DNA of 64,000 nucleotides from a virus (IMGVR_UViG_3300028920_000694:40201-104200); one strand, 5' to 3'; positions 29,066-53,222 are shown, numbered from the stretch's first letter. Notes: a model not told the origin generated them from the letters alone. Made by a program: numbers and translations.

Positions 29066-29467
29066 TTAATCATCATGATGGTATGTTCTACTGAATACTA
29101 GTATCTTTCTATATATTCTTCTAGCATCATCATTATCATCATTATCTGAATCTTTTCTACATGCACCAGATGCAATGAACATAGGGATTATTGTATCTGA
29201 TAAATCATATGTCTGCTTTTTACTTCTAGAAATCACATCCACCTGAGTGACTAGTTCCTCTTTTCTCATTCTGGAACCTTTTGGTGAACTCTTATATCCA
29301 AGATATCCTGTATCTGAACCACCTACTTGAGATAGAATGATACATGGAAACTTCTCTAGTTCATCAGGCCATCCATATCTAATCTCTGATTTAGAAACTG
29401 TATCTGTTATTGCAGAACAACTTTTTAGATATCCACCTAATTCACGAAGAGCATCTGAAGAAATGAT
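29066..29467 (-). CDS. Tail terminator / completion protein (non-canonical ATC/ATT start inferred)
   Basis: The frame is open 66 codons upstream of the tracked ATG (29269) and encodes IRYGWPDELEKFPCIILSQVGG...TQVDVIS, a tail-terminator pattern. No ATG/GTG/TTG lies in that stretch. Canonical position between neck and tube genes. Confidence 0.7.
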   Translation of the reverse strand: MISSDALRELGGYLKSCSAITDTVSKSEIRYGWPDELEKFPCIILSQVGGSDTGYLGYKSSPKGSRMRKEELVTQVDVISRSKKQTYDLSDTIIPMFIASGACRKDSDNDDNDDARRIYRKILVFSRTYHHDD

Positions 29468-29468
29468 A

Positions 29469-29987
29469 TCACCTCACCCTCAATGATATTCCAAATAAGC
29501 CTTGACTTATACTTTGTGTTATTTCCTGCAATATCTGTCTATGAACATATGGAGATTCAATTGCTCTAGTCAGATAATTATATCCCTTTTGGACTGCAAA
29601 TCTCTGTCTATACATTGGTGGATTCAATCCTTGCTGCTTACCTATAGGGAATGGTGGACTTGAGCCAGGTCTTTCAACCATAGCAGCTCCAATTGCTCCA
29701 AATTCAACAACTGCAGCATGTTTAGATTTACAGAATAATCTGAATTTATCTGCCATGCCTTGTTTACCCCATGTTGTTTTGCTTCTAATAGAATCTGTGG
29801 ATACTCCAAGAGATGGCCATCTACCAGTTCCGACACTCATATCTAGATATTCAATAGCAGAATCTCTAACAATGTCACATGATTTATCCAATCCAGTATA
29901 TGCAGATGAATGTATCTTCTGTACAATGTTGTCTATGTTCTGAAGAACTGTATTTAGATTACTAATCCTATAGTCTATAGTCATCAT
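29469..29987 (-). CDS. HK97 gp10-like neck/tail completion protein
   Basis: SKHAAVVEFGA and KGYNYLTRAIE motifs; gene position. Confidence 0.7.
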   Translation of the reverse strand: MMTIDYRISNLNTVLQNIDNIVQKIHSSAYTGLDKSCDIVRDSAIEYLDMSVGTGRWPSLGVSTDSIRSKTTWGKQGMADKFRLFCKSKHAAVVEFGAIGAAMVERPGSSPPFPIGKQQGLNPPMYRQRFAVQKGYNYLTRAIESPYVHRQILQEITQSISQGLFGISLRVR

Positions 29988-30307
29988 ACTTTTAACTCAC
30001 TTATTAAACATTCCTTGTGATGACCCTCTGCATCAACAATCACTTCTCTGATTATATATCTATCTCCATTAAATGTCAATTGCTCTCCCTCTCTTATTGC
30101 AGCAGATGATTGGAAGTATCCAAAGTATCTTATATCATCATGTCTTCCAAACTGTTCTAGGGTTTCATACTCTGAAACTGCAGTCATTCTACAAGATGTA
30201 TCTGAAGCAGCTGATGAATAGGTATATGTCCAATCACCCCATTCATTCTGAGATGAATAGGATGTAAGTAAATTACATTTCTGTTTGAGTAAATCATTAT
30301 AACTCAT
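29984..30307 (-). CDS. Head closure (head-tail joining, SPP1 gp16-like) protein
   Basis: QNEWGDW...EQLTFNGDRYIIREV....GHHKECLI; gene position. Confidence 0.75.
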   Translation of the reverse strand: MSYNDLLKQKCNLLTSYSSQNEWGDWTYTYSSAASDTSCRMTAVSEYETLEQFGRHDDIRYFGYFQSSAAIREGEQLTFNGDRYIIREVIVDAEGHHKECLISELKV

Positions 30308-30576
30308 TTTCTTCTTCCTTTACAATTCCTTAGATTTAAGAGAGGTCCCTTATACTTTCCTGAGTGAATAAACTCATGACACTCTTTACATACTGGAACC
30401 ATATTCCTTGGATGATGATTTCCACCACATCCAACTGGAATTATATGATGCAGATGTAGATTCCCTTTAGAGAACTTCCCACATCTCTGACATATATATC
30501 CCATACCTTTGAATATGGCATGTCTTTGTTTATTCCATCCAACTGGATATCTGACATCTGGTCTGATATATGTTAT
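30304..30576 (-). CDS. HNH endonuclease (ATA start inferred upstream of the tracked ATG)
   Basis: CQRCG...LHLHHIIPVGCGGNHHPRNMVPVCKECHEFIH. The in-frame upstream segment YPVGWNKQRHAIFK is a typical HNH N-terminus; an AGGTGA SD precedes the ATA at 30576. Confidence 0.85.
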   Translation of the reverse strand: MTYIRPDVRYPVGWNKQRHAIFKGMGYICQRCGKFSKGNLHLHHIIPVGCGGNHHPRNMVPVCKECHEFIHSGKYKGPLLNLRNCKGRRK

Positions 30577-30584
30577 AGAATCAC

Positions 30585-30968
30585 CTATAGATTAGATATG
30601 TATATCTTTAATTTATCATCCTTTACATAAGACCTAGCATTGAGAATTCTATGTGCCATATCTTCTAGTGTAACACTGATTCTGTTTGGAGAACCTGTGA
30701 TATCTAACTCATAAGAGTAATTTCTCACGGTTTCTCTTCTTAATGTGTAATGACTAGATGCAATTGAAGGTAGATTAATAATCCTAGAAACAACTAATAG
30801 GAGTGCAGGATATTTTGCATCTGATGCTGATGTAAGTTCATATACTTTCTTAATATAATCCTCTACATAAGCTATATGAGTTGCCATTGCAGTAGTTCCT
30901 AATGTTGCAGTAGGCAGACTTGGTTCAAACCATTCTCTGATTTCAGTATCTGAAATAAAATCACCCAT
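30585..30968 (-). CDS. Head-tail adaptor (SPP1 gp15-like)
   Basis: Helical N-terminus, RETVRNYSYEL motif; gene position after the capsid. Confidence 0.65.
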   Translation of the reverse strand: MGDFISDTEIREWFEPSLPTATLGTTAMATHIAYVEDYIKKVYELTSASDAKYPALLLVVSRIINLPSIASSHYTLRRETVRNYSYELDITGSPNRISVTLEDMAHRILNARSYVKDDKLKIYISNL

Positions 30969-30973
30969 ACATA

Positions 30974-31222
30974 TCACCCTATTTCTGGTAAATCTCTAAT
31001 ATCTACAGTTTTCTTTGACCTAATAGAAACATCAACAGGATAAGGATTCTGCTTTCTTTCAAATGAATCAGGATTAGTTAAACCACCACCCTTATTTCCA
31101 GATATACCATACCAATCATGCATATCAGAATCTATATTATCTTCATCAAGAAGTCCTCGTCTACGTTTCTTCTCAAATTTCTTACTGAGAAAACGTAAGT
31201 CACCTTTTCCTGTTTGTGTCAT
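30974..31222 (-). CDS. Hypothetical protein
   Basis: ORF with an SD, tightly packed in the late operon. Confidence 0.5.
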   Translation of the reverse strand: MTQTGKGDLRFLSKKFEKKRRRGLLDEDNIDSDMHDWYGISGNKGGGLTNPDSFERKQNPYPVDVSIRSKKTVDIRDLPEIG

Positions 31223-31232
31223 CTAATCAGTC

Positions 31233-31484
31233 CTATGCTTTTTTAGCATAGAATGGTATATACATACTAGCTCCACTAGCACCATATGTACTACCAGATA
31301 CAATTCTGATTCTTAGATATCCAACTGCTGGATTTGTACTAGAGACTCCAGATGGGAATATAGTTAGAAAAGATGATGTATCATATAGCAGATTATCATC
31401 ATCACTATAGAATGTTAATCCTCTGCCATCCTTTGATACACTTAATCTTTCTACTGTCTGTACTTCTATATTAGACCCTGGCAT
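31233..31484 (-). CDS. Small virion protein (head fibre/decoration-like)
   Basis: C-terminus GYLRIRIVSGS...MYIPFY is paralogous to 31497..31958. Confidence 0.45.
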   Translation of the reverse strand: MPGSNIEVQTVERLSVSKDGRGLTFYSDDDNLLYDTSSFLTIFPSGVSSTNPAVGYLRIRIVSGSTYGASGASMYIPFYAKKA

Positions 31485-31496
31485 ATTTCATCCTCC

Positions 31497-31958
31497 TTAC
31501 GTTGCCCATGTAGTGCTGCTAAATAATGGAGCATACATTGTATGCCATGTACCAGCTGAACCACTAGGTCCGACTTTCACTCTTAACCAACCACAGACTG
31601 CACCACTAGTTAAATGTGTTTTCCACATTGTTGCACTAGAATTAAAGAATTGTCCAGATGCAATCACACCATCATTTGGAAATCTCATGGATTCTGAACC
31701 AGGTGAGAACTGTAAATAATTATTGTCTGCTAATACTGTATTGCCACTATGATATGTATTACCAGAAAGAATAATTGCAGTGCTACCTTGTAGTTTGCAT
31801 GTAGGAGCAGTTACCTTAACTGTAGTATCTCCAGCAACATCTAATTGTCCATCTGCAGATGAAGATATAAGAACATCTCTATCTCTGAATGATACACTAC
31901 CACTCTTTATGTTTAATTCATCCCTGACATTTAAATAATTATATTTAGGACCAGGCAT
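31497..31958 (-). CDS. Small virion protein (head fibre/decoration-like)
   Basis: Ser/Gly-rich beta protein; C-terminus GWLRVKVGPSGS...MYAPLF. Confidence 0.45.
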   Translation of the reverse strand: MPGPKYNYLNVRDELNIKSGSVSFRDRDVLISSSADGQLDVAGDTTVKVTAPTCKLQGSTAIILSGNTYHSGNTVLADNNYLQFSPGSESMRFPNDGVIASGQFFNSSATMWKTHLTSGAVCGWLRVKVGPSGSAGTWHTMYAPLFSSTTWAT

Positions 31959-32004
31959 TTTCTTTCCTTTTATATAACATGACTAAATACTTAATGAACA
32001 TAAA

Positions 32005-32056
32005 TTCTTATTGCGAGGCTGCGAACCTCGACCCTATATAAGAGTCGCAATAAGAA
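32005..32056 (-). ncRNA. Three-way-junction RNA structure in the 3' UTR of the major capsid gene
   Basis: Minus strand reads UUCUUAUUGC [GACUC-uuauaua-GGGUC] [GAGGU-ucgca-GCCUC] GCAAUAAGAA. Both inner stems need a G.U pair, which forms only on the minus (sense) strand. Confidence 0.6.
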
Positions 32057-32094
32057 CATCTACATCAATTACCTATATACCGTGCTAATTATCA

Positions 32095-33195
32095 TCATTT
32101 GTGGTATATTTTACAGCCTGCAGATTCGTTAATGACACGAACACCGTATCTCATGAGTAGAGATATTCCTACTAGGTCATGAATTGGGTCATCATAGTTT
32201 GTGACTTTCAAATCATGTCTCATTCGTATCATGGCTAATGGTGCAGTGTTTGAGAATATGAGTCCAGTTACGTTAGTTCCAGCTGTAGTGTCTCCCCATA
32301 TTGCACTAGATGCTAAATCAGTTGCAGTACAAGTATATGGAGTTAATCCCATAAGTTTTGGAACTGTTCCACTTGTCAATGGTCCAGCTGTTCCCATGTA
32401 TGCAGCATATGCAATGTTTGAATCTTGTAGTAAGTATCCCTCTGCTGTTGGATGAGTGACTAATTTATCTACTCCACCCCAGTTCTGCTTGATGACCTTT
32501 GACCTAGCGAGTGCTAAATCAGATACTGCAATATGTGTTCCCTCTGGATTCAATGTATTTGTAGATATAGCTCTGGATGAATTTAGAATCTCATTTAAGC
32601 ATACCCTATTCAACTTGTTCTCCATAGCCATTCCTGCTTTCCTTAACTCAATATCAACAATATCGAATTGGCAATCATCTATTAACTCATTCGTAATTAT
32701 TGGTCGAATACCATACTTGGTGATTGGGATATCAACTTTTGAGTATTCTTGTGTATCAACTGTGATTGCACCAGCTTCTGCAACTTCGTATGCATAGTAT
32801 CCAGATTCTCCCTTGACTACTCTAGTAGAGTATGATTCTGCAGTTGTGATTGGTAGAACTTCTCTGAAACACTTGTATGGTTCTGCTCCATCAATGATAG
32901 TGTTGTAAACCTCTTCTTGAACAAGTGTAGATTCTGCAACAGCTTCTTCCTCTGATTGTAATAGAGCCTTGTAAGCATCCATTCTCTCATAGGGAGTGTT
33001 TAAGCCAAATGACTTATAGTTGAATGGAAATCTAACTGACTTGCCTTCGAGAGCTTTCTTGAACCATTCTTTGCCTAGCATAGACTTTCTCTCACCATTT
33101 GTTGCATTTGCATACATCAGAACCTTTGGTAGTGTCTTTGTGCTATTCCTTATGATGCTGTCCTTATTTATTTGCCTTTTACTTTGACTAACCAT
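32095..33195 (-). CDS. Major capsid protein, HK97 fold
   Basis: FREVLP...YEVAEAGAI...VDIPITKYGIRPIITNELIDDCQFDIVDIELRKAG.AM..KLN..CL. Start placed at the ATG after an AGGTGA SD. Confidence 0.95.
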   Translation of the reverse strand: MVSQSKRQINKDSIIRNSTKTLPKVLMYANATNGERKSMLGKEWFKKALEGKSVRFPFNYKSFGLNTPYERMDAYKALLQSEEEAVAESTLVQEEVYNTIIDGAEPYKCFREVLPITTAESYSTRVVKGESGYYAYEVAEAGAITVDTQEYSKVDIPITKYGIRPIITNELIDDCQFDIVDIELRKAGMAMENKLNRVCLNEILNSSRAISTNTLNPEGTHIAVSDLALARSKVIKQNWGGVDKLVTHPTAEGYLLQDSNIAYAAYMGTAGPLTSGTVPKLMGLTPYTCTATDLASSAIWGDTTAGTNVTGLIFSNTAPLAMIRMRHDLKVTNYDDPIHDLVGISLLMRYGVRVINESAGCKIYHK

Positions 33196-33251
33196 AAATT
33201 TCACCTAAATTATTGAATAAACATAATAAACATACAAACATTAAAAAATAA

Positions 33252-33656
33252 TTAGTGTAACAATACTCTTGCAGTTCCATCAGCAGTAGCTTGGTCTTCT
33301 AATGCAATTGCAGATATACCTGATGGTTGAGAACCTATATTAGCCTTGTGAGCAAACTTTCCTTCATTGACACAAAGCAAATGTTCACCAAAGCTACAGT
33401 TGTTTGAACCAGATATAATGACTCTAACTATTGCACCAGGGCCATAGACACCAATCCAGTCTCCATCAGTTTGTTTATATTCAGCAACTCCTACACAACC
33501 AGAAGCCATGTGATTTTGATAAGAGCCTGGAGCCTTGACTTGCATATCCCCACAGCATATAACTCCTTGTCCCCTATAGATGGTTCCAGAGCATTCATAA
33601 CTGAGTGGTAAAGTACCTTGTAAGCCTATCTCACTTGTTGGTCCAGTAAATGACAT
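33252..33656 (-). CDS. Capsid decoration/cement protein
   Basis: Between protease/scaffold and MCP; CSGTIYRGQGV...CVGVAEY...IGVYGPG...AIALEDQAT.GTARVLL beta-tulip-like pattern. Confidence 0.7.
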   Translation of the reverse strand: MSFTGPTSEIGLQGTLPLSYECSGTIYRGQGVICCGDMQVKAPGSYQNHMASGCVGVAEYKQTDGDWIGVYGPGAIVRVIISGSNNCSFGEHLLCVNEGKFAHKANIGSQPSGISAIALEDQATADGTARVLLH

Positions 33657-33704
33657 TCATTCACCTTTTATTTATAACAGATTTACAGTCACATCAGAAA
33701 GACA

Positions 33705-34928
33705 TCAATAACGTAAATATACTTCACCATGGTCACTAACAAATGGATCATCAAGAACTAAATCAACAGATTCATCATCCTCTTCCTCTTTAAGAGTTTT
33801 GGATTCCTTCTCTTCTTTTTCTGATTTAGTCAGAACCTCGATTTTCTTGTTTAGTGCATCTATCTGGTCATCCCTAGCCTTAATTGCAAGTTTAAGTTCC
33901 TCTATGTCATCTCCCTCACTCTTTTCAGTGAACAATCCATTTAGTTTCTCAACTGCAACATTTAGATGTTCAGAAATATCATTAACTGATTTCCTTAGCT
34001 CATCTAATTCACTAGTCTCCTCTTTAACCTCTTCTGATTTCTCTTCTTCTTTTGATTCCTCTTCAGTCTTTTCTTCTGTTTCTTCTTTAGGTTCTTCAGA
34101 TACTTCATCATCTGATTTCTCTTCTTCCTGAGGAGATAATTTAGTTAATGCAGCTTCCATATTTAGGATTGCCCTCTCTAATTTCTCGATTCTGTCCTCT
34201 ACTGAAAGTTCTACTTCCTCTGATTTCTCTTGCTCTTCAACAGCCTCAGAAGATTCTTCTTTAACTTCTTCCTCTTCCTTAGCTTCTGCTTTGACCTTTT
34301 TCTTTGACATTCTATCTTTATTTATACCACATTCATCACATACATTCTCATAAGATTTAAAGTCTAAATTCCCTTCATCATATTTAGATTTAGAGATGAC
34401 AACAAATCCAGACATTTCATTCGCTGGAAAGTTAGTTAGTGAAACCTCAAATATATTTATCTTATCTAGAACTTCTATGCAGTTCTTTCCATCAGCATCA
34501 CATCTATCATGTGAATCAAGAACCTCACATCCAATAGAGAATCCATTTATTTCACCATCAATTATCTGTTGCCAGATATCATTAGAAATCTCTGTATCAC
34601 TTCTTATCTTAGCAACAATAAAGAGCCCCTTATCATCTACATGAGTCTTTAGTTCTCCATATTCAGGTAGTATCTTTCCTATCTGGATATTCTTGTGAAA
34701 CAACATTAGATTAGCATATGATAAATCACTCATTAGAGTCTCTATTCCAGCCTTTAGAGATTCTGTTGGAATTAATTGATTCTGGCTATCAACCACAGCT
34801 AAATTAGCATATCCAGCAATTATCCTATCTCCTTTCTCTTTGCTAACTATCTTAGCCATTCCCATCAGATTCACTGGAATTCTAATTGGATGGATTTCTT
34901 CTTTCATAGTTAATTCTTTTATATTCAT
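33705..34928 (-). CDS. Prohead protease (HK97 family) fused to an acidic scaffold
   Basis: IIAGYANLAVVDSQNQLI, catalytic His (MLFHK), catalytic Ser (GEINGFSIG), EVSLTNFPAN, and an E/K-rich coiled-coil C-terminus. Confidence 0.92.
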   Translation of the reverse strand: MNIKELTMKEEIHPIRIPVNLMGMAKIVSKEKGDRIIAGYANLAVVDSQNQLIPTESLKAGIETLMSDLSYANLMLFHKNIQIGKILPEYGELKTHVDDKGLFIVAKIRSDTEISNDIWQQIIDGEINGFSIGCEVLDSHDRCDADGKNCIEVLDKINIFEVSLTNFPANEMSGFVVISKSKYDEGNLDFKSYENVCDECGINKDRMSKKKVKAEAKEEEEVKEESSEAVEEQEKSEEVELSVEDRIEKLERAILNMEAALTKLSPQEEEKSDDEVSEEPKEETEEKTEEESKEEEKSEEVKEETSELDELRKSVNDISEHLNVAVEKLNGLFTEKSEGDDIEELKLAIKARDDQIDALNKKIEVLTKSEKEEKESKTLKEEEDDESVDLVLDDPFVSDHGEVYLRY

Positions 34929-35149
34929 AACAAGCTAGTAATTATAACAGAAGCAATTAAGCCACATATTAATCCAATAGAACCACCTAAACCAGCAGCC
35001 TTAATCTGCACACCAACCATTCTCTTCTTGATGTCTTTGACATCAGTCTTGATTTCATCTATATCTTTATTGAGGTCTTCTAGTGCTTTAAGAGTTTCTC
35101 CTCTCCATTGAGCTATCTTCATATCCCACTCAGTATAATTATTTGTCAT
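34925..35149 (-). CDS. Coiled-coil plus C-terminal TM protein (XhlA/holin-like)
   Basis: WRGETLKALEDL...IKTDVKDIKKR coiled coil, then hydrophobic AAGLGGSIGLICGLIASVII. Confidence 0.55.
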   Translation of the reverse strand: MTNNYTEWDMKIAQWRGETLKALEDLNKDIDEIKTDVKDIKKRMVGVQIKAAGLGGSIGLICGLIASVIITSLL

Positions 35150-35570
35150 TGTTCTTCACTCTCTTTATTGGATTTAGAATTTCAATCACTCCAGAAACAC
35201 CATCATATATCAGTGGAATATCAGTCACCATATATTTAATTCCTGATACTGGAGAAATCCATTCTGTATTCTCTATTTGTTTAGACTTTAATGCTCTCTT
35301 TGCTGGGCAACCCTTACATGGAGAATTAATCCCCATAACTGCCTCATAACAATGCACATATAAAGAAGTATCTATTCCATACTTCTCACCCATAGCAATT
35401 GCAAGTGGATTTAGATATATAGTTTTAAAATCATTAGATATTATAACTACAGGTGATTTGACTGAATCTAGAATCAATTTGATGAATTTGAATGAAGGAC
35501 CTTCCTCATGATATTCTATCTCTTCAGCAAGTTCCTTGGTTAATCTTTTAAGTCCATCTAAATTAGCCAT
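35139..35570 (-). CDS. Stand-alone PAS-domain protein with a Cys motif
   Basis: ILDSVKSPVVIISNDFKTIYLN (PAS start), CYEAVMGINSPCKGCP, and a terminal GVIEILNPI strand. Confidence 0.8.
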   Translation of the reverse strand: MANLDGLKRLTKELAEEIEYHEEGPSFKFIKLILDSVKSPVVIISNDFKTIYLNPLAIAMGEKYGIDTSLYVHCYEAVMGINSPCKGCPAKRALKSKQIENTEWISPVSGIKYMVTDIPLIYDGVSGVIEILNPIKRVKNNDK

Positions 35571-35624
35571 GGTTCTTGTACCATCCTAGTCTCTTTAAAT
35601 TCTCAAATCCCATACATCAGTACC

Positions 35625-35825
35625 TTAACTAGTCCATTCTCTTCTAAATGGAACCCAATCTCCATCAGCATTAGTTCCTGACCAGATATACATACAAACT
35701 GCTAATGCATTTCCGTATGTAATCCCACTCGGCTTGAATCCAGTGAAATCAATTATTCCAGCTGAACTTGATATACTTGTTGATGCTATATTACTAGATT
35801 CTCTATATGAACCTATGATAGTCAT
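35625..35825 (-). CDS. Hypothetical protein
   Basis: ORF with an SD, in the late operon. Confidence 0.5.
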   Translation of the reverse strand: MTIIGSYRESSNIASTSISSSAGIIDFTGFKPSGITYGNALAVCMYIWSGTNADGDWVPFRREWTS

Positions 35826-35836
35826 CTCACTCTCTC

Positions 35837-36466
35837 TTATCTATCAACATCATCACCCCAAACTAGAGCCATATATGAATATTCACCATCTTCTTGTTTA
35901 GGCTCAATCCAGAATGATTCTTTACTCACATACATATCTTTTAGTTTAACTACATCATCTATTGGAATGTCCCACTTTAGATTAGCAACTAGTTCTTCTC
36001 TCTTAGTGTAGAATCTAATAACTCCATCTATTCTATAGTCAATTAATTCTTCAAATGGATTGAAGTCTTTGTCCTTGAGTTCTTCATACTTTTCTTTTTC
36101 TATCTCACAGAATCTTAATTGAACTAATGCAATGTCTCTGGCTTTCATCATGGTGAATTTCTCAATGCATTCTTTGCTTGCCATTTTAATGTCATCCTTA
36201 GTAACTAATTCATAAGTTCCATCTCCCATTTCAAGTAAGTAATCATATTTGTGAACATAATTAGAGAGTATTTCATTTTCCCTTTGAAGTAATTTATTAA
36301 ACTTCTCCTCAACTTGAGATATCTGTGACTCGTATTCTTTGATGGTGGTATCTAATTCATCTAATTTCTTTATTCTTTCTTCATATATAGCATTTTTCTC
36401 TTCTAGTTCCTTCTTTCTCTGAGATAACCTCTTATTCAGCTCTTTCAATGCCAAATCCTTAATCAT
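35837..36466 (-). CDS. Coiled-coil hypothetical protein
   Basis: Long heptad-rich N-terminus. Confidence 0.55.
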   Translation of the reverse strand: MIKDLALKELNKRLSQRKKELEEKNAIYEERIKKLDELDTTIKEYESQISQVEEKFNKLLQRENEILSNYVHKYDYLLEMGDGTYELVTKDDIKMASKECIEKFTMMKARDIALVQLRFCEIEKEKYEELKDKDFNPFEELIDYRIDGVIRFYTKREELVANLKWDIPIDDVVKLKDMYVSKESFWIEPKQEDGEYSYMALVWGDDVDR

Positions 36467-37103
36467 TAATTTCCTCTATAATTTCATCATCTAACATACT
36501 AAACATAGATTTTGCAAGCTCCTTAATGTCATCATTCATTTTCTTTAAATCATCAGATGTCAACTTTTCCAGATGATTCTTACTTTCACCTATAGCATGT
36601 ATGGTATCATCTATCTTATCTAATATCTCCTTAGAATCCTCTTTAGATGATAGTTTTATCTTCATGCCTTCCAAGAAGAGTAATAATTCATTAATACTTT
36701 CAGCCATATCCTTTAACATCTTTCTAGTTTCTTTAGTATCTTTAAGAATCCTATCTCGTTGCTTATGAGTCCATGGAGACTTATTTCCAAAGGCCATTAC
36801 TTTAGTTCCTCCACCACCTCCACCTAATGATACTTGGTCTACTTCATTAGTAGCAAACATGTATCTTTCACTAGTAGGTTGTGTAGCACCTCCATCTGCT
36901 CTGAAGCAATAGTTATTAGCTGGTGTATATGTTGAGAATGTATATTTGTAATATCCACCTGCAATCTCCGTCATAGTCTGTGAAGTAATTACTTGGCTCC
37001 CATCTGTCTCCCATCCATCAAGAATTGGAGATAATCCTGTAGCAGCAACACCACCAGAAGTAAAGTAAGCTACTATCTCATTTCCATATGCCATTTTAAT
37101 CAA
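36459..37103 (-). CDS. Hypothetical virion protein (beta-rich N-terminal domain plus coiled coil)
   Basis: FTSGGVAATGLSP...MTEIAGGYYKYTF...ADGG, followed by a helical C-terminus. Confidence 0.5.
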   Translation of the reverse strand: MIKMAYGNEIVAYFTSGGVAATGLSPILDGWETDGSQVITSQTMTEIAGGYYKYTFSTYTPANNYCFRADGGATQPTSERYMFATNEVDQVSLGGGGGGTKVMAFGNKSPWTHKQRDRILKDTKETRKMLKDMAESINELLLFLEGMKIKLSSKEDSKEILDKIDDTIHAIGESKNHLEKLTSDDLKKMNDDIKELAKSMFSMLDDEIIEEIND

Positions 37104-37398: not shown

Positions 37399-37425
37399 AA
37401 TAATTTCTATATATCATATACATAT

Positions 37426-38412: not shown

Positions 38413-38418
38413 ATCTCC

Positions 38419-40159: not shown

Positions 40160-40169
40160 ACTTATCCTC

Positions 40170-42995: not shown

Positions 42996-42999
42996 ATCT

Positions 43000-44255: not shown

Positions 44256-44261
44256 ATTTTC

Positions 44262-44468: not shown

Positions 44469-44469
44469 T

Positions 44470-44838: not shown

Positions 44839-44850
44839 ATTTATCTACCT

Positions 44851-45123: not shown

Positions 45124-45129
45124 TTTTAT

Positions 45130-46125
45130 CTACCTCATTTTATATATTTGTTTAATTGTGTATATCTCTAATCCTTTGACCTCTTATCATTGACCCCATA
45201 AAAGCCTAATTAGAAGCCCGTTAACCTGTGTCCAAAGATTGATTTTTTGCGTATCCGTTTAAGAGTTGTCAGGTATCCTCTTAAACCCGTTAAACCTGTG
45301 TTCCATATGGGATATTTACTTATATACTTATGCCTGTTTTTGATTGTTAATATACTTAAGTGAAAAACTTTAAATATAAATACTTACTATATACTAAGTT
45401 AAGGTTCATGCTTAACTTATCTATATAGATTAGTGGTGACTAGAGATATGAATATTAATATATTTAGAGTTAGATATAAAGCCTTATTTCAGGCATATCT
45501 AGAGGTATTTATATATTTCATTTTATATTCTCTCATTTATTCATTTAGATATATCTTCAGGCATAGATATTTTATACCCATCTATTTAAATTCAGACCCC
45601 AAGATATATATCCCTAGAGCATTTATATCCAGAGATTTATATATATTTGTTTTTACTTTAATTAATATATACTTAAGATATTATAGAACTAGTGATATAG
45701 ATTCAGATTTATATATAAGATTCTATAGAACAATAGATTTAGATTCTAATAGATATATAGATTTAGAATTATATAGAACTAGAGATATAAGTTTTACTAG
45801 AGATATAGATATATGTTATTTTATATAAGTGGTTCTATAGTAATACTTCTATGATAATACTACTATAATACTACTTATATATCTACCCCCCTATATAGTT
45901 CCCCCCCTTCTTTTACAAAATGCTGTGTATATCGTGATTAGATTTTTGAACTCAAAACTTTTTCTAAATTCTGATTCAAAATCTTTTGCAGATGGTGATT
46001 AGATTCCCTTACAAAAGAGGATGTAGATAGTGATTAGATATTTATATTCGATCAAAAATATAAAAGTCCAAGAATAGAATACCCAAAAGTATTTAAACAC
46101 ATAACCCTTACGGTATCTCAAAATT
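45130..46125. promoter_or_regulatory. Divergent AT-rich control region (candidate origin/early promoters)
   Basis: About 1 kb without a credible ORF between divergent operons. BRE-TATA-like GAAAAACTTTAAATA at 45362, direct repeat CCCGTTAA(A)CCTGTGT x2, iterated TATAGA/TAGATT units, and GTGATTAG x3. Confidence 0.6.
46085..46098 (+). promoter_or_regulatory. Archaeal BRE-TATA promoter of the early operon
   Basis: AAAAGTATTTAAAC about 40 nt upstream of the ATG at 46137. Confidence 0.65.
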
Positions 46126-46136
46126 AGGTGAAAAAT

Positions 46137-46346
46137 ATGGAAAAAGAAAACCAAAACCAAGAAGTAGAGGCTGTTGAGAAAGAAACATTTATTTGCACAG
46201 AGATGGATTTAAGAAAGGGAATTATGGGAGAGATAGTGAAAGAGATTCAGTTATTATCCTATAGTGGCTATGAAAAGATTGATAATATAATTAAAGAGGA
46301 ATTAAAGAAGTATTACATTGAGAAATTAAAGAAAGAGGTGAACTAA
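46137..46346 (+). CDS. Early hypothetical protein
   Basis: AGGTGA SD; first gene of a TAA-ATG-coupled operon. Confidence 0.6.
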   Translation: MEKENQNQEVEAVEKETFICTEMDLRKGIMGEIVKEIQLLSYSGYEKIDNIIKEELKKYYIEKLKKEVN

Positions 46347-46583
46347 ATGCAAACATATAAAACAACTGTGGTCTGTGATTGTGGAGAGGCAATTGAATTA
46401 GAGGTCTGTTTGATGAACGCATCTTTCTATGATGCTTGTGGAGGTGTAAAAACAGAATATAAGGTGATTAAAGAATCTTGTGAATGTTCAAAAGAAAATC
46501 TAACAGATAAAATCTGGAAACAGAATGTCTATGAGGAAAAAAATAAATTAGTTGAAGATGAATTAAAGCCAGAGGTGGATTAA
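46347..46583 (+). CDS. Early small Cys-containing protein
   Basis: CDCG...C; TAAATG junctions on both sides. Confidence 0.55.
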   Translation: MQTYKTTVVCDCGEAIELEVCLMNASFYDACGGVKTEYKVIKESCECSKENLTDKIWKQNVYEEKNKLVEDELKPEVD

Positions 46584-46742
46584 ATGGACAGATATACCAA
46601 ATCAGATATAACTAGACTAAAGAATCTTCTTTATCTTTATCGTGATTATATCATAACCAATCTAGCCACCAAAGAAACAATCACTAGTGTAATTGTAGAG
46701 GTTGATGAATCTATTGAGTTCTTAATTAAGGGGTTGGATTAA
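46584..46742 (+). CDS. Early small protein (52 aa)
   Basis: Fills the gap exactly between two TAAATG junctions. Confidence 0.55.
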   Translation: MDRYTKSDITRLKNLLYLYRDYIITNLATKETITSVIVEVDESIEFLIKGLD

Positions 46743-46973
46743 ATGAAGCCAATTACATTAGAACAAGCCAAGAAATTGACTAGAGGAACAATCCTTTATT
46801 GTATGATATGTGATAATGCAGATGGAACACCTCAGAGATGGAGAGTTAATGGAAAAGTCAAGAGATGGAAAAGGAATCCAGATAGGATAGAGATACCTAT
46901 TAAAAGAGGTTTATATGAATGCTATTATCTAACAAATGCAAACATTGATTGTTTTTCTTTGGAGGCTGATTAA
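46743..46973 (+). CDS. Conserved phage hypothetical protein
   Basis: NADGTPQRWRVNG..K.WKR.P....IP.K.GLY motif. Confidence 0.6.
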   Translation: MKPITLEQAKKLTRGTILYCMICDNADGTPQRWRVNGKVKRWKRNPDRIEIPIKRGLYECYYLTNANIDCFSLEAD

Positions 46974-47156
46974 ATGAGAGAAGAAAAATACATTCTCACT
47001 CTTTATTTACCTGATGACTATCCCCAGATGACTAAAACAGAAATCTTTGGGAAATTAATGAAGTCCACATCTAAACTATACAAAGAGGCAATAGACATAT
47101 CAATTACTGACTTATCTATACAGAGCAAGATAAATGAACATCTAGGAGGTGATTAA
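46974..47156 (+). CDS. Early small protein
   Basis: Translationally coupled ORF. Confidence 0.5.
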   Translation: MREEKYILTLYLPDDYPQMTKTEIFGKLMKSTSKLYKEAIDISITDLSIQSKINEHLGGD

Positions 47157-47327
47157 GTGAAATCTTATGACATTGTTGGATATATTGAAGAATCAGATAT
47201 ATATTGTCCTGAATGTGCTAAAGATAAATCTACCCCAATCTTTGCAGGTGATGAGTTCGAATGCAAACAGTATTGTGGAAATTGTTATACTGAATTAGAT
47301 GTTAATGTATATGGAGAGGATGATTAA
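47157..47327 (+). CDS. Early zinc-ribbon protein (56 aa)
   Basis: GTG start directly after TAA; CPEC ... CGNC. Confidence 0.55.
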   Translation: MKSYDIVGYIEESDIYCPECAKDKSTPIFAGDEFECKQYCGNCYTELDVNVYGEDD

Positions 47328-47744
47328 ATGGTCAAGAGAACAGTTGAAATAGATGATACACTAGAGGAAACAGTTGAGTGTGTAAAATATGACCTCAGAC
47401 ATGACTTTATTGATTATTTAAAGGAAAATCCAGAGATAGAGGACTTTGATGAATACTACAAAGATAGCGATATGATACATGAAATAGTTGATTCTGCTGT
47501 CCCGATATATTACTCTGAAATTGATGGACTTTACTACCTCTATGGTGATGAATTTGAGGAGGCATATCAAAATGCAGGGATTGGAGATGGAACAGAGGAT
47601 AATCACAGGCAAGTGACTATCTATTGCTATCTAGAGGAACAGGCATTTGACTACCTCAGGGAACTAGAGGATTTGTTTGATGAATTCGTTGATGAGAAAA
47701 ATGGTATAAAAAAGTTGATTAAAGAACTAGAGGAGGAGAATTAA
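47328..47744 (+). CDS. Ocr (T7 gp0.3)-like acidic DNA-mimic anti-restriction protein
   Basis: IHEIVDSAVPIYYSEI aligns with T7 Ocr IHMAADNAVPHYYADI; very D/E-rich, 138 aa, early operon. Confidence 0.7.
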   Translation: MVKRTVEIDDTLEETVECVKYDLRHDFIDYLKENPEIEDFDEYYKDSDMIHEIVDSAVPIYYSEIDGLYYLYGDEFEEAYQNAGIGDGTEDNHRQVTIYCYLEEQAFDYLRELEDLFDEFVDEKNGIKKLIKELEEEN

Positions 47745-47999
47745 ATGGTCAAGTGTCCTTATTGTGATGAAGAAATAACCTCATTAACTCATTTAGTGAG
47801 TGAGGGTTATACTGCATATGATGTTGTTTCTGGGAATATCGTTGAGGAGGAAATAAACCTTCAGGAATTCATAGATTCAACAAATGTATATCATTGCCCA
47901 ATTTGTTATATGTATCTATTTGATTATATCTCTGAATCAGACCTAAAAAAACTCTATGATGGAACACTAACACAGGAGGAATTTGATAAATATGTATAG
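47745..47999 (+). CDS. Early zinc-ribbon protein
   Basis: CPYC ... CPIC. Confidence 0.6.
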   Translation: MVKCPYCDEEITSLTHLVSEGYTAYDVVSGNIVEEEINLQEFIDSTNVYHCPICYMYLFDYISESDLKKLYDGTLTQEEFDKYV

Positions 48000-48130
48000 A
48001 GATACCTATCAATCATTAGAGAATTTGTTTGTAGATGTTGCACAGTTGATTCTTGATAATTACGGTGTTTCAATTGATGACTTACATGACATTCTAAAGG
48101 ACAGATTAGAATTAATTGACTAAACAGCCT

Positions 48131-48179
48131 AAGGTGAGGGGTTTCCTTGTTTTCCTCTCACCTAATCGTTTTTTTTTTT
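48131..48179 (+). terminator. Hairpin plus T10 terminator of the early + operon
   Basis: AGGTGAGG...TCTCACCT stem followed by TTTTTTTTTT. Confidence 0.65.
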
Positions 48180-48204
48180 GAATCTTATTTTTATTCAAGA
48201 TCAA

Positions 48205-48311
48205 AATAAAAACACCAAAGAGCAATGCTGAGGCACTTTAATCTTACCCTTACCTAACCATAGGGTGAGAGAGATATGCTCTCAGAATCCATCTATGACA
48301 ATCCTCAGAGG
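48205..48311 (+). repeat. Dispersed quasi-palindromic element, copy E (arm variants swapped)
   Basis: CAAAGAGCAATGCTGAGGCACTTTAATCTTACCCTTAC...AGATATGCTCTCAGAATCC...ACAATCCTCAG; the spacer closely matches copy D. Confidence 0.8.
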
Positions 48312-48387
48312 TTCTGCTTCATCACTAGAAACCCCACATCCAGAGTGCATACTTATCGACAATTGCAGTAGAACATATAGGCATATT

Positions 48388-48521
48388 CCAGAATCTTCAT
48401 TTTAAGCCATTCTGAGCCACTTTAATGTTCACCCTTACTCTACCATTAGGAAGAAAAGATATTGCGTCAGCGTTGCTCTCTGTCAATCCTCAGGCAAATC
48501 TAGAGGGTATCCTAGACCCAG
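48388..48521 (+). repeat. Dispersed ~130-bp quasi-palindromic element, copy D
   Basis: Shares exact 12-, 24- and 13-nt blocks (AGCCATTCTGAG, AAAAGATATTGCGTCAGCGTTGCT, TAGAGGGTATCCT) with copy C at identical spacing. Confidence 0.9.
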
Positions 48522-48532
48522 ATTCTATATCT

Positions 48533-48550
48533 AAAAAAAAAAGAAAAAGA
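48533..48550 (-). terminator. Oligo-T terminator of the convergent - operon
   Basis: The minus strand reads TCTTTTTCTTTTTTTTTT just after the stop at 48555. Confidence 0.55.
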
Positions 48551-48554
48551 GAAT

Positions 48555-48752
48555 TTAATTAATGATTTGAAACGTCAATCCATATCTCTCTAGATTCTTA
48601 ACGAATCCATCATCTTTATTATATCCATTAATGTGTTCTTTTTGTTCTTCAAGATATTCAACTATATCATCTGCTGTTCCAAACCAAGCAACATAACTAC
48701 TATCACCACTATCAAATATCCTGTATATTGTTTCTAATTGACATATTCTCAT
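48555..48752 (-). CDS. Small hypothetical protein
   Basis: GAGGTGA SD; last gene of the - operon. Confidence 0.55.
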   Translation of the reverse strand: MRICQLETIYRIFDSGDSSYVAWFGTADDIVEYLEEQKEHINGYNKDDGFVKNLERYGLTFQIIN

Positions 48753-48771
48753 TCTTCACTCACCTCATAAA

Positions 48772-48984
48772 TTATTTTCTATATTTCTCCAGAATCCCTC
48801 TTGACATAGTTTCAAATCCCTTAAATATCTCTTTTCCATCATCATATGCTTTGTAATATGCTTCTAAATCATAGGGGAAATCAGGTTTCTCTTGACATTC
48901 ACAACAGAATCCTAGTTCATTTCCATCTTCACCCATCATAAATTCTTTACCACAGAGAATGCAATAATCTACATCTTCACACAT
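48772..48984 (-). CDS. Zinc-ribbon protein
   Basis: CILC ... CCEC; TAG-ATG coupling. Confidence 0.6.
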   Translation of the reverse strand: MCEDVDYCILCGKEFMMGEDGNELGFCCECQEKPDFPYDLEAYYKAYDDGKEIFKGFETMSRGILEKYRK

Positions 48985-49170
48985 CTATTCCACATCCTGT
49001 GACTTTAAATGTTCAAGTATATCCTGAAATTCCCAGTCATAGAATTCATCTATACAGACAGGATACCAACCCTCTGAATATCTATCTTCATCATTAGCCT
49101 CCTGAATGTATCTATCATACTCTCCAATCAAGAGCATAAGTTCTGATTTAGATATATCTGAAGGAATCAT
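48985..49170 (-). CDS. Small acidic hypothetical protein
   Basis: TAG-ATG coupling on both sides. Confidence 0.55.
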   Translation of the reverse strand: MIPSDISKSELMLLIGEYDRYIQEANDEDRYSEGWYPVCIDEFYDWEFQDILEHLKSQDVE

Positions 49171-49440
49171 CTAGTAATCACCTTCTTCAGTAAATACAAT
49201 CTTGCCATTTAAATATACATTGAAAACTTCAGCCTCAAAGTAATCTTCCACATGTTTCTTTGCCTCCTCTATGGATTTAGCCTCAAATTCTTCAGCACAA
49301 TTGCCATCTAACCATCCATCTGGCTCTATCCAATGGTGGACATAAGGATATGAATCTAGTATCTTCTTAATACCTTCTTCAGCAGTATCTCCCCAATTCT
49401 CTGGATTATGACATTCTGTCCAACTAATAGTGAATTTCAT
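49171..49440 (-). CDS. Small acidic hypothetical protein
   Basis: Translationally coupled ORF. Confidence 0.55.
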   Translation of the reverse strand: MKFTISWTECHNPENWGDTAEEGIKKILDSYPYVHHWIEPDGWLDGNCAEEFEAKSIEEAKKHVEDYFEAEVFNVYLNGKIVFTEEGDY

Positions 49441-49859
49441 TCTTCAACCTCCTCATCCATAAGACACATTTCATTTGGACAATAGAAATATCCTTTCTTA
49501 TCTGGAATCTCTAGCATTTCACTACCACAAGCCCAACATTTCATTCAATCACCCACCAAAGTCTTAACTCTTTTCAAATCTGGATTCATGTCTACCACTT
49601 CAAATTCAATATCATCTAGCCAGAAGGTATCACCTATCTGGAAATCAGATTTAGATACAGCATTTATAAATTCTTCTATCTTCATCCTATCACCCATCAC
49701 ACCTGAATGTAAGTTCTCTTTCTATTCCCAGAATCCTAGAGAGTGCTTGAACTTCATCATCTGAACTGTCTTTGCCATGTGTAAGATAATTCCAGAGTTC
49801 ATCAAATTCCTTCATCAATTCCTCATTAGTCATATCTTCATAATCTTTGCTCATTCATA

Positions 49860-50423
49860 TCACCAACTAGAATGATAATATAATTCATAATCATCAGGCA
49901 ATTTAAGACACCTCTCAATGATTTCAATAGTCAGTTCAATATCTTTCATATACCATTGGTCATAATCAGTAGAGCCAAAGAAGAACCCTTCCTCTGTTGG
50001 TAAGAGCCTCTGTGCAGTAGTTGAATCAACTATATATTCACCTGCTTCAAGTATAGGAACTCTCCCACTTTCCTCTATTCTATATCCATTAGTAACTGTT
50101 CCCTCTCTCATCTCTGAATCTTTAACTACCTGCTTACATAGTTCTAATAGTTCTTTTAATTGTTCTCTAGATACATAACTATCTCTGCAATCATCATTTC
50201 CATCCTGACAGTTATCCACAAACCACTTGTGTATATGATTAGCCTTTCTCCAATAGCCTACCTCATGCCTGATAGTTATACTGTCTAAGTTATCTGTCTT
50301 AATCATCTCTGGAAATATATCTCTAATCTGCTGATTCTCTGGATTAATCACTTTCTTGTGGTCTTTAGTGTAGTCATATCCTGAAATATACTTTTCTGCA
50401 TACAGATACATATCTAATCCCAT
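49860..50423 (-). CDS. Conserved phage protein of unknown function
   Basis: MGLDMY...YWRKANHIHKWF...LLPT.EGFFFGS..YD...YYHSSW, a widespread phage family signature. Confidence 0.75.
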   Translation of the reverse strand: MGLDMYLYAEKYISGYDYTKDHKKVINPENQQIRDIFPEMIKTDNLDSITIRHEVGYWRKANHIHKWFVDNCQDGNDDCRDSYVSREQLKELLELCKQVVKDSEMREGTVTNGYRIEESGRVPILEAGEYIVDSTTAQRLLPTEEGFFFGSTDYDQWYMKDIELTIEIIERCLKLPDDYELYYHSSW

Positions 50424-50591
50424 TTATTTCACCTTCTCTAATTTAGATATTAAATCTTTCAGGAAAGATATATCTTCTTTCCATTCATCATCATTATTGT
50501 AACCATCTTTTGAAGTTTCAGCAATTTCTAATTCTGTAATCATAGCCCAATAAATTCTCTTTAATTCTTCACCTGTTAAGTCTAATTCCAT

Positions 50592-50798
50592 CTATTGTTC
50601 CCCCTCTGGATAATATTCTAATCTAGTTCTACATTTAGCACATCTCTGTTCAAATTCTACATTATCTATATTAGAATCATATAGAGCATAGTAAGTTCCA
50701 TCCCATTCTCTTTGTTCTTCAATAGGCTCTGTGTACATCTCAATTATCTTATCTGGATATACTTTACATTGTGGACAATAAAGAACTTTCTTATTCAT
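50592..50798 (-). CDS. Zinc-ribbon protein
   Basis: CPQC ... CAKC; the ATG overlaps the upstream TAA. Confidence 0.6.
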   Translation of the reverse strand: MNKKVLYCPQCKVYPDKIIEMYTEPIEEQREWDGTYYALYDSNIDNVEFEQRCAKCRTRLEYYPEGEQ

Positions 50799-50917
50799 TA
50801 TTCTTTCACCTCTGCTAAAGTCATTATAAATTCCTTCCATGTAAGTCCACTTGCCTCTTTTGGAACATTCAATCTATCAAACTCTGAATCTTCTAGATGT
50901 AGTTTAATCATTTTCAT
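50798..50917 (-). CDS. Ribbon-helix-helix-like small DNA-binding protein (39 aa)
   Basis: MKMIKLHLEDSEFDRL...KEASGLTWKEFIM, a CopG/RHH pattern; GGAGG SD. Confidence 0.5.
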   Translation of the reverse strand: MKMIKLHLEDSEFDRLNVPKEASGLTWKEFIMTLAEVKE

Positions 50918-51215
50918 ATTCAAATCCCTCCTCATTAAAGAATACATCTCTAGCAAAGTATAGATATTCTTCTTCATCTTCAATGATTCCATCATCTTTC
51001 TCTAATCCTGCTTTCTCTAGAATAGGTCTAACTACTTCCCAGAGCCTATCATTCAATACTTCATCTAGATAATCCATTTCGCCTTCAACAGCTTCTTTTA
51101 TTTGTTCTTTCAAATTTCTTGGTATTTTCAATATATCACCAACCACCCTAATGCGTTTGGGGTATATAAACCTTCCTACTGACTTACCTACTGCCGAAAA
51201 TGTATATAAACTCAT
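50904..51215 (-). CDS. Acidic hypothetical protein
   Basis: First ORF of the - operon. Confidence 0.5.
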   Translation of the reverse strand: MSLYTFSAVGKSVGRFIYPKRIRVVGDILKIPRNLKEQIKEAVEGEMDYLDEVLNDRLWEVVRPILEKAGLEKDDGIIEDEEEYLYFARDVFFNEEGFEYEND

Positions 51216-51904
51216 GCTCTATTAGGGTATCAGAATGAAAGACAGAATCTCAATCATATACACCAAAGTAAATGGATTTGATGGCTTGGTGTATGTAAAT
51301 AAGAAATTACATCGTGATTCAAAAGATTCACAAAAGGTGATTAGGAATCGTGATTCAGATTCTTGGAGAGATTCTTCTGAATCAAAAACTATATATACCC
51401 CAAATGACATATAGGTATATGAAAAAACACATAAAAAAGGTGATTAGAAAATGAAGAGAAAAATGTATTCACTAGCAGAAGAAATTGGAATAGTCTTTAA
51501 GCAAGGCTGGAGGCAGATGAATGAACACCAACAGAATCAGATAGTTAAGGCTCTGACTCTGAAGAATCGAGAAGATGTAGAACATGTATTAGATAGTTTG
51601 GAGAAGTTGAAATGAAACTCACATATGAGCAAGAGGATCTGATTCTAGAGCAAGGATTAGAGAGATGGAGGAAAGAAAGAGATGAAAGTTAGGGATTATG
51701 CAGAATGTCTGTTCATGGATTGGTCTAAAGAGGCACTGGTAGATGTGATTCTGGATAAGATGACTAAAGCAGATATGATTCAGTTCATTATGGGACAAGA
51801 CTTGAATGCAGATAAGAATCTAGTTGAGTGTGATGACCTGGAGCTTGGGGATTTATGAAAAAGAAGATTCCAGAAGTGATTGAGATAGTGTTTGTTCAGG
51901 AGAT

Positions 51905-52345
51905 GTGATAATTATCCAAACATTCCTACCATATGAAGATTTTGAAGAGACTGCTAAATGTCTGGACTATAGAAGATTAGGTAAACAGAGAATTGAAGCA
52001 AAGCAGATAATTAATCTACTTGAGAAACATGACAGGGGAGAAGATATATCTAAGGAACCATGGGGTAATCATCCTGCTGTAAAGATGTGGATGGAATGCA
52101 CACTTGCCTTGAAGATATACTACAATGCAATAGTTCAAGAATGGATTGATAGAGGATACAAGAATACTCTACCTCTATATCATATAGAAAGAGGTCAATG
52201 CTACAGAATACCTGATGTGATGGGGAATCAAGAGTTCCATGATTCACACAGGTCTAATCTGCTAAGAAAGGACAAGGAGTTCTACTCTAAATATGGATGG
52301 AATGTTCCAGATGATTTAAAGTATATATGGAGAGTGAAGAAATGA
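51905..52345 (+). CDS. Pyrimidine-dimer DNA glycosylase-like protein (T4 DenV / MSMEG_6728 family)
   Basis: QTFLPY..F...A..LD.RRLGKQR.EA.QI, HPAVKMW, EW..RGY, SHRSNLLRKD..FY. Confidence 0.8.
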   Translation: MIIIQTFLPYEDFEETAKCLDYRRLGKQRIEAKQIINLLEKHDRGEDISKEPWGNHPAVKMWMECTLALKIYYNAIVQEWIDRGYKNTLPLYHIERGQCYRIPDVMGNQEFHDSHRSNLLRKDKEFYSKYGWNVPDDLKYIWRVKK

Positions 52346-52637
52346 GAAAGAGATGGAGAAGAATCATTGCTATAATCATGACACTTATTCTGATATTCCT
52401 AATCATCACTGTTCTTGGAGGAGATGGATCTTCAATCAATAGTGCAGAGATAGGTCAAGGATATGGAGTGTGAATAGAATGAGAAGAATAATGTTTAAGT
52501 GTCCTGAATGTGGGAATGTCTACCTACCTAAAAGAATACAGATATGGGTAGATATAACTACGCACCTGATTGTGAGTGTAGCAAGTTTCTTTGCTGGTGT
52601 AGTTTATTGGAGTTGATAGAATAAGGGGTGATTTAAT

Positions 52638-53222
52638 ATAACTAAAGTATATTTCACAGCAGATACTCACTTCAATCATGCAAACATCATTGCATACACA
52701 AACAGACCATATGCTAAAAAGGATAGGGATTATTTCATCCTAGATGATGGAAATGTAGTGTGGAAATCAGATAAAGTCAAATTTGATAGGTGCAGATATA
52801 TGAATGAGGATCTGATTGAGAAGTGGAACTCTGTTGTGGAACCTGAAGATGTTGTTTATCATCTAGGTGATTTTGGATTTCTCAACTCCAAAGAATATGA
52901 TGAGTTTCTTAATAGATTGAATGGAAGAATTGTTTTGTTCAGTGGAAATCATGACAAGCAGAATAAGATAAAGGGTTATCTTGAGATGGCTATGATGGAA
53001 TTTGGAAGCAAGAAGGTATTTGCACAGCATACACCACCTCAGATAATTCCTGAATGTGATTTCTGCATATGTGGGCATGTTCATGATAAGTGGAAACATA
53101 AAGTCTACAGGAAGCAACCAAATATACCAATCATCAATGTTGGGGTGGATGTTTGGAATCATCAACCTGTATCAACATTGAGCTTGTTGAAATATTATAA
53201 TGAAATATTAAAGGAGATGTGA
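52638..53222 (+). CDS. Calcineurin-like metallophosphoesterase (ATA start inferred)
   Basis: Motif I FTADTHF lies upstream of the tracked GTG, followed by HLGDF, GNHD, QH and GHVH. Only an ATA lies between the in-frame TGA (52629) and motif I, after a GGGGTGA SD. Confidence 0.88.
   Translation: MTKVYFTADTHFNHANIIAYTNRPYAKKDRDYFILDDGNVVWKSDKVKFDRCRYMNEDLIEKWNSVVEPEDVVYHLGDFGFLNSKEYDEFLNRLNGRIVLFSGNHDKQNKIKGYLEMAMMEFGSKKVFAQHTPPQIIPECDFCICGHVHDKWKHKVYRKQPNIPIINVGVDVWNHQPVSTLSLLKYYNEILKEM

What the first reader, a model, noticed from the sequence alone, without database searches (positions are those of the whole stretch)
29066..52660. At least three genes seem to start at ATA/ATC/ATT codons
Seen: (1) Tail terminator: no ATG/GTG/TTG between an in-frame TGA and 66 codons of conserved-looking sequence; ATC 29467 or ATT 29464 follows GAGGGTGAGGTGA. 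(2) HNH: ATA 30576 follows AGGTGA, and the conserved YPxGW segment lies upstream of the first ATG. (3) Metallophosphoesterase: the catalytic DTH motif lies upstream of any canonical start, and ATA 52638 follows GGGGTGA. The PDG gene (GTGATAATTATC-CAA) may be a fourth case. Inference: SD-driven non-AUG initiation is used routinely, possibly to tune expression, and might be linked to the viral eS17.
Basis: partly seen in the sequence, partly recalled or inferred. Interest (0 to 1): 0.65.

Follow-up and report, generated by a model that had tools for sequence, protein, structure and literature searches.

The report
Non-ATG starts in an archaeal virus
In a large uncultured archaeal tailed virus and its relatives, about 1 gene in 25 most likely starts translation at ATT, ATA or ATC behind an unusually strong ribosome-binding site, so gene finders cut these proteins short; this looks like a habit of the host ribosome, not an effect of the virus's own ribosomal protein.

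Summary
Observation confirmed. The tail terminator (ATT 29464, not ATC 29467), HNH (ATA 30576), metallophosphoesterase (ATA 52638) and very probably PDG (ATC 51914) have an Ile codon exactly where orthologues have ATG, 4-6 nt behind GGTGA (GTGA for PDG). The bases recur in independent assemblies (three for the named genes, two for PDG), the N-terminal segments are under purifying selection, and frameshift or readthrough does not fit. About 6-7 of ~175 genes (~4%) do this, and relatives do it at other genes. Across 31 tail-terminator orthologues the start column holds only ATG (24), ATT (4), ATC, ACG or TTG. Non-ATG starts arose about four times and carry much stronger SDs (median -12.8 vs -6.9 kcal/mol). 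This fits SD-compensated weak initiation, as shown for Staphylococcus AUU/AUA genes. Tuning is plausible for the tail terminator only. A link to viral eS17 is unsupported: a relative lacking eS17 at the syntenic site and cellular Asgard genes show the same starts. The scan found this habit before in cellular archaea (Loki, Bathy, Thermoplasmatales); I found no earlier viral case. There are no translation data and the host is unresolved.

The parts
29066..29464 (-). Tail terminator gene, 132 aa, start ATT 29464-29462
   Evidence: PHROG 78 tail terminator E=7e-7; Pfam Tail_completion_gp17 weak; orthologue start column; family length 132 aa
29468..29475 (-). SD GAGGTGAT of the tail terminator; contains the TGA stop (29471-29469) of the upstream gene
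   Evidence: sequence; anti-SD duplex -13.6 kcal/mol
30304..30576 (-). HNH endonuclease gene, 90 aa, start ATA 30576
   Evidence: PF01844 E=1.5e-9; orthologues: 14 ATG, 1 TTG; public calls give 66 aa
30580..30586 (-). SD AGGTGAT of HNH, overlapping the end of the upstream gene
   Evidence: sequence; -9.0 kcal/mol
51914..52345 (+). Pyrimidine dimer glycosylase gene, 143 aa, probable start ATC 51914; the in-frame GTG 51905 lies inside the SD
   Evidence: PF03013 E=2e-20; orthologue MQTFLPY in the same column; SD -10.9 at ATC vs -3.1 at GTG
51899..51909 (+). SD-like GGAGATGTGAT of PDG
   Evidence: sequence
52638..53222 (+). Calcineurin-like metallophosphoesterase gene, 194 aa, start ATA 52638
   Evidence: PF00149; PHROG 547 E=5e-40; five closest orthologues start with ATG at or next to this column; public calls give 140 aa, without DTH
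52625..52632 (+). SD GGGGTGAT of the phosphoesterase; its TGA is the in-frame upstream stop
   Evidence: sequence; -13.2 kcal/mol
62507..62788 (+). Viral eS17 with a basic C-terminal tail (context for the proposed link; not needed for the ATH starts)
   Evidence: PF00833 E=5e-10; absent at the syntenic site in G003

Best explanation
These are intact genes translated from near-cognate AUU/AUA/AUC codons by the host's ordinary initiation machinery. A long SD (GGAGGUGAU-like) pairs with the 16S 3' end (AUCACCUCC) and holds the 30S so that the codon 4-6 nt after GGUGA lies in the P site. There Met-tRNAi accepts a codon with one mismatch at reduced efficiency. An SD overlapping the upstream stop probably helps by termination-reinitiation in some cases. 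ATG-to-ATH changes are tolerated when the SD is strong, so they arise here and there across the family. At the tail terminator they recur often, which suggests that low output is favoured or at least harmless. Shown: sequence, orthologous column, conservation, SD strength, recurrence. Inferred: that ribosomes start there, the efficiency, and any benefit.
For: The orthologue start column holds only near-cognate codons: ATG 24, ATT 4, ATC 1, ACG 1, TTG 1 of 31. SD is stronger with non-ATG starts: median -12.8 vs -6.9 kcal/mol, Mann-Whitney p=1e-4 (rows not independent), and in the same direction in three close-relative contrasts L153/L120, L124/L123 and window/L144. The segments upstream of the first canonical codon are under purifying selection: dN/dS 0.20/0.74 (terminator), 0.39/0.69 (HNH), 0.31/2.4 (phosphoesterase), 0.18/saturated (PDG). 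Orphan strong SDs point at ATH in 10 of 10 cases. Relatives do the same at other genes, supported by homology: G001 ERCC4 and Zn-finger ATA, G002 34771 ATA and tape measure ATA, G003 ATC, G005 ATT. Spacing matches the P. abyssi model mRNA GGAGGUGAU-UUAA-AUG (PMC6237735). S. aureus AUU/AUA starts need extended SDs and give about 10-30% of AUG output (PMC13009471).
Against: The host is not identified, so its anti-SD was assumed to be the archaeal consensus. A review lists only AUG, GUG and UUG as archaeal starts (PMC7531240), and aIF1 is reported to disfavour non-canonical codons (PMC6237735). For PDG and the gene at 64580, an in-frame GTG three codons upstream cannot be excluded.
Confidence: 0.85

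Rival explanations
1. The weak start is specifically selected at the tail terminator to keep a low-copy virion protein scarce within a strongly expressed late operon (dosage tuning). This is an addition to the best explanation.
For: ATH/ACG at 6 of 30 terminator starts vs 4 of 142 neighbouring-gene starts in the same loci, Fisher p=0.002 (two of the four are unresolved weak-SD calls). About four separate origins; one clade swaps among TTG, ATT, ACG and ATC without returning to ATG.
Against: 24 of 31 orthologues keep ATG, and near-identical proteins differ (L153 ATT vs L120 ATG). ATG versions have weak SDs, so net output may simply stay constant (compensation). Rows are phylogenetically dependent.
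Confidence: 0.35
2. The proteins are made by frameshift or readthrough from the upstream gene.
For: Five of six ATH/ACG terminator starts are in the +1 frame of the upstream stop. The family does appear to use a +1 frameshift at the tail chaperone.
Against: The codons before the stops (AGG, ATG, GTG, GGG, CGA) share no shift site. The +1 offset follows from the TGA in GGTGA serving as the stop. The phosphoesterase frame has three stops (TGA, TAG, TGA) within 8 codons upstream of ATA. Orthologues are separate genes with their own ATG in the same column. The SD strength difference is not predicted by this model.
Confidence: 0.04
3. Viral eS17 with its basic tail remodels the mRNA exit channel and enables or boosts AUH initiation on strong-SD viral mRNAs.
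For: eS17 sits at the end of the archaeal exit chamber that holds the SD duplex (PMC7531240), and the eukaryotic eS17 extension contacts mRNA (PMC7005279). G000, G001 and G002 carry eS17 and ATH starts.
Against: G003 lacks eS17 at the syntenic site (record about 80% complete) but has ATH starts. Cellular Loki-type aIF1 genes start at ATT. No test links the two.
Confidence: 0.07
4. Assembly errors or recently inactivated genes (start lost, N-terminus not translated).
For: HNH, phosphoesterase and PDG are accessory genes that could decay.
Against: The same bases occur in other assemblies and strain variants. dN is below dS across the N-terminal segments. The tail terminator is a structural gene expected to be essential. 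Random loss would not come with stronger SDs.
Confidence: 0.04

Closest known systems
Staphylococcus aureus AUA/AUU starts with extended SD: infC, cvfC1, ccpN, citZ (PMC13009471)
   Same: AUH codon behind a strong, extended SD; reduced initiation (about 10-30% of AUG there)
   Different: Bacterial and shown by Ribo-Ret and reporters, four sites per genome, mostly conserved. Here the machinery is archaeal, about 4% of genes in a virus are affected, the sites are mostly not conserved gene by gene, and there are no experimental data.
E. coli infC (IF3) AUU start with autoregulation (own knowledge; mentioned in PMC13009471)
   Same: AUU start behind an SD
   Different: No feedback loop here: the virus encodes no aIF1/SUI1 and the genes are not initiation factors.
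ATH starts in uncultured cellular archaea (Lokiarchaeia, Thermoplasmatales SG8-52-3, Bathyarchaeia), from earlier notes of this scan, not published work
   Same: Same codons, same GGTGA spacing, similar share of genes; I confirmed ATT at Loki-type aIF1 genes
   Different: Here in a virus, including a structural gene with repeated independent switches.
Translational coupling by termination-reinitiation in archaea (PMC6728339)
   Same: SD inside the upstream gene end and start close to the stop (gaps of 0-8 nt in 4 of 6 G000 cases)
   Different: Described for AUG/GUG/UUG overlaps. Here there is no overlap, the start is near-cognate, and the phosphoesterase and PDG starts lie 21 and 55 nt from the upstream stop.

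Membership tests
SD-led near-cognate (AUH) initiation | No ATG/GTG/TTG upstream of essential N-terminal sequence | tested here: met
   for terminator, HNH and phosphoesterase; for PDG only the SD's own GTG
SD-led near-cognate (AUH) initiation | AUH codon in the column where orthologues start | tested here: met
SD-led near-cognate (AUH) initiation | Strong or extended SD at canonical spacing | tested here: met
   spacing 4-6 nt after GGTGA as for ATG genes; consensus anti-SD assumed
SD-led near-cognate (AUH) initiation | Coding constraint on the segment between AUH and the first canonical codon | tested here: met
   dN below dS for all four genes
SD-led near-cognate (AUH) initiation | Initiating ribosomes or N-terminal Met mapped at the codon; reduced efficiency against AUG | not testable with these tools
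   uncultured virus, no translation data
infC-type autoregulated weak start | Gene encodes a start-codon fidelity factor and the weak start is conserved | tested here: not met
   no SUI1 in the virus; the starts are mostly ATG in orthologues
Programmed frameshift or readthrough fusion | Conserved shift or readthrough site and no own start in orthologues | tested here: not met
   for the three named genes; met instead by the tail chaperone ORF 27300-27527

The most novel reading that the evidence does not exclude
The virus family repeatedly evolves a weak near-cognate start (ATT/ATC/ACG/TTG) with a compensating strong SD at the tail terminator as a selected way to set virion-protein stoichiometry. 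In the most extreme version (probability about 0.07) the viral eS17 tail also biases ribosomes toward these strong-SD starts.
Probability: 0.3. Interest if true: 0.6.

Novelty: new member of a known kind. Interest (0 to 1): 0.42.

Why it matters
Practical: public gene calls give the tail terminator as 67 aa instead of 132, the HNH as 66 instead of 90, and the phosphoesterase as 140 aa without its metal-binding DTH motif, so viruses of these archaea are systematically mis-annotated. Conceptual: reviews list only AUG/GUG/UUG as archaeal starts. The tail-terminator series is a natural experiment, one gene with five start codons in which SD strength tracks codon quality. It makes the SD-versus-start-codon trade-off in archaeal initiation testable with a few reporters. 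Surprise is moderate: the mechanism is known in bacteria, and the scan has already seen the habit many times in cellular archaea.

Tried and rejected
ATC 29467 as the terminator start: rejected (orthologous column and family length point to ATT 29464). ATA 27527 behind GGTGA as a further start: rejected, because all five relatives keep TTT-CGT-TGA without a start or SD there, so it is a +1 frameshift ORF. Host assignment failed: eS17 is at most 52% identical to sampled Asgard genomes, its best PDB matches are the chains of 6SW9 and 4V4N, there was no terminator relative in 400 Asgard genomes (uninformative), and the TFS and Alba searches gave unnamed contigs. One genome-contig scan was wasted on a gene I mistook for eS17. 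A census of 400 kb from five GC-richer Asgard genomes had too few strong SDs to be informative. A pooled codon model dropped the HNH and phosphoesterase genes, so those counts omit them. Literature searches found no report of AUH starts in archaeal viruses; in the HFTV1 Ribo-seq preprint, 'non-canonical' refers to start-site position. The sigma-70 promoter scan does not apply to an archaeal host.

Full report
Context. The window is bases 40201-104200 of a 115,333-bp virus record, G000, 34% GC. It has head-tail genes (capsid, terminase) and archaeal-type eS17, Alba and RadA genes. The host is archaeal but unresolved.

Observation. All three sites are as described. The tail terminator frame opens after a TGA at GGT GAT ATC ATT TCT, and its first canonical codon is 65 codons after ATT 29464. 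HNH has ATA 30576 with YPVGW at residues 10-14 and the first ATG 24 codons on. The phosphoesterase has ATA 52638 with DTH at residues 9-11 and the first canonical codon 40 codons on. PHROG and Pfam matches cover these N-terminal parts. Contigs from Logan SRR8554434, ENA ERZ27252234 and JGI 3300030616, up to 24 SNPs from the window, have identical bases at the three sites, and two of them also cover PDG. Gene callers there give 67, 66 and 140 aa products. Assembly error is thereby very unlikely, although I could not lay reads.

Orthologues fix the start. Most terminator homologues are 132 aa, exactly the length from ATT 29464. In 31 distinct DNA orthologues the same column holds ATG 24 times, ATT 4, ATC 1, ACG 1 and TTG 1. 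HNH orthologues start with ATG (14) or TTG (1). The five closest phosphoesterases start with ATG at or next to the ATA column. The PDG orthologue begins MQTFLPY where G000 has ATC CAA ACA TTC; the GTG three codons upstream is the GTG of the SD and has almost no SD of its own. The stretches upstream of the first canonical codon have dN well below dS, so they are under coding constraint.

More than chance, and family-wide. A census of G000 gives ATH candidates at 29464, 30576, 51914 and 52638, two just beyond the window (64294 ATT, 64580 ATA) and one ambiguous case upstream of it: about 6-7 of about 175 genes. 5' GGTGA motifs without a canonical start point at ATH in 11 of 12 cases against 9% inside genes. 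At the strictest SD score, starts in seven viral records are ATG 24, GTG/TTG 5, ATH 10 and other 0. Relatives use ATH at different genes, backed by homologues with ATG: G001 ERCC4 nuclease and Zn-finger, G002 34771 and tape measure, G003 48704, G005 15688, and a tail-tube gene in L125.

Mechanism. ATH codons lie 4-6 nt after GGTGA, like ATG starts and like the P. abyssi model mRNA (PMC6237735). At the terminator, non-ATG starts have anti-SD duplex energies of median -12.8 against -6.9 kcal/mol for ATG (p=1e-4, rows related). The tree gives about four separate origins, and three close-relative contrasts go the same way. This is the arrangement shown experimentally for S. aureus AUU/AUA genes, which give about 10-30% of AUG output (PMC13009471). 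I infer that the SD duplex positions the codon in the P site and that Met-tRNAi accepts the mismatch. SDs that overlap the upstream stop may add termination-reinitiation (PMC6728339). Initiation itself is not shown.

Tuning. The terminator is a hot spot: 6 of 30 ATH/ACG against 4 of 142 at neighbouring genes in the same loci (p=0.002), and one clade moves among TTG, ATT, ACG and ATC without returning to ATG. That fits selection for low dosage. It also fits simple compensation, because the ATG versions have weak SDs. For HNH, the phosphoesterase and PDG the ATH is private to this lineage, which looks like tolerated drift.

Rivals. Frameshift or readthrough fails: there is no shared shift site, three stacked stops lie upstream of the phosphoesterase, and orthologues have their own starts. 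The same tests do flag a probable +1 frameshift at the tail chaperone, so its ATA 27527 is not counted. The eS17 link has structural plausibility only (PMC7531240; PMC7005279). G003 has RadA abutting ERCC4 with no eS17 between them and still has an ATC start where five orthologues have ATG. Low-GC Asgard aIF1 genes have ATT behind GTGA with no canonical start, so cellular archaeal genes show the same pattern with no viral eS17 involved. The virus encodes no aIF1.

Known and new. SD-led AUH initiation is known in bacteria. An archaeal review names only AUG, GUG and UUG, and my searches found no published archaeal-virus case. Earlier notes of this scan report the habit many times in cellular Loki, Bathy and Thermoplasmatales genomes; they are leads, and I checked only the aIF1 claim, in part. 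Verdict: real, a new viral member of a known kind, with one useful addition, the terminator series showing SD and start-codon compensation. Interest 0.42.

Noticed in passing
window 27300-27957 (-), site 27525-27514: The tail assembly chaperone ends AAA TTT CGT TGA and a 75-codon ORF follows in the +1 frame. All five relatives keep TTT CGT TGA (two as TCC TTT CGT, the PA-X-type motif) with no start codon there: probable +1 frameshift.
   Followed up: partly
L084:2495-2779 and L084:2781-3446 (genome, just beyond the window end; window numbering 64294 and 64580): Two more ATH starts in tandem: a 94-aa ORF with no ATG at all (ATT right after TAA) and an RNase_H_2/exonuclease gene (ATA; GTG inside the SD). 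Both are kept in a 97.8%-identical sister virus.
   Followed up: yes
G002:C1 92886-99257 (-): The 2,100-aa tape measure gene of a relative appears to start at ATA (GGAAGGTGATATT ATA GCT TCA CTT), matching MATIG of G001.
   Followed up: partly
window 62507-62788 (+): Viral eS17 with a Lys/Arg-rich tail; also in G001 and G002 (long basic tail in G002), absent between RadA and ERCC4 in G003.
   Followed up: partly
window 27957 (-): The tail chaperone starts at GTG behind a perfect GGAGGTGAT (-20.9 kcal/mol). GTG/TTG starts in the family also have stronger SDs than ATG starts (median -10.1 vs -6.2).
   Followed up: partly
genome C1 about 1-45400 (window 1-5244 and upstream): About 45 kb of co-directional genes upstream of the window, ending in the putative sugar-modification cluster at window 1-5244; almost none shows an ATH start except one ambiguous case. 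Not annotated here.
   Followed up: no
L204-L210, L195-L196 (Asgard genomes): aIF1 genes of low-GC Asgard genomes have ATT/ATA in the start position, several with no canonical codon upstream of the Cys motif.
   Followed up: partly
L116:1406-2041: A sister virus carries an extra gene with a PF10127 (RlaP) hit between RadA and the next gene, absent from G000.
   Followed up: no
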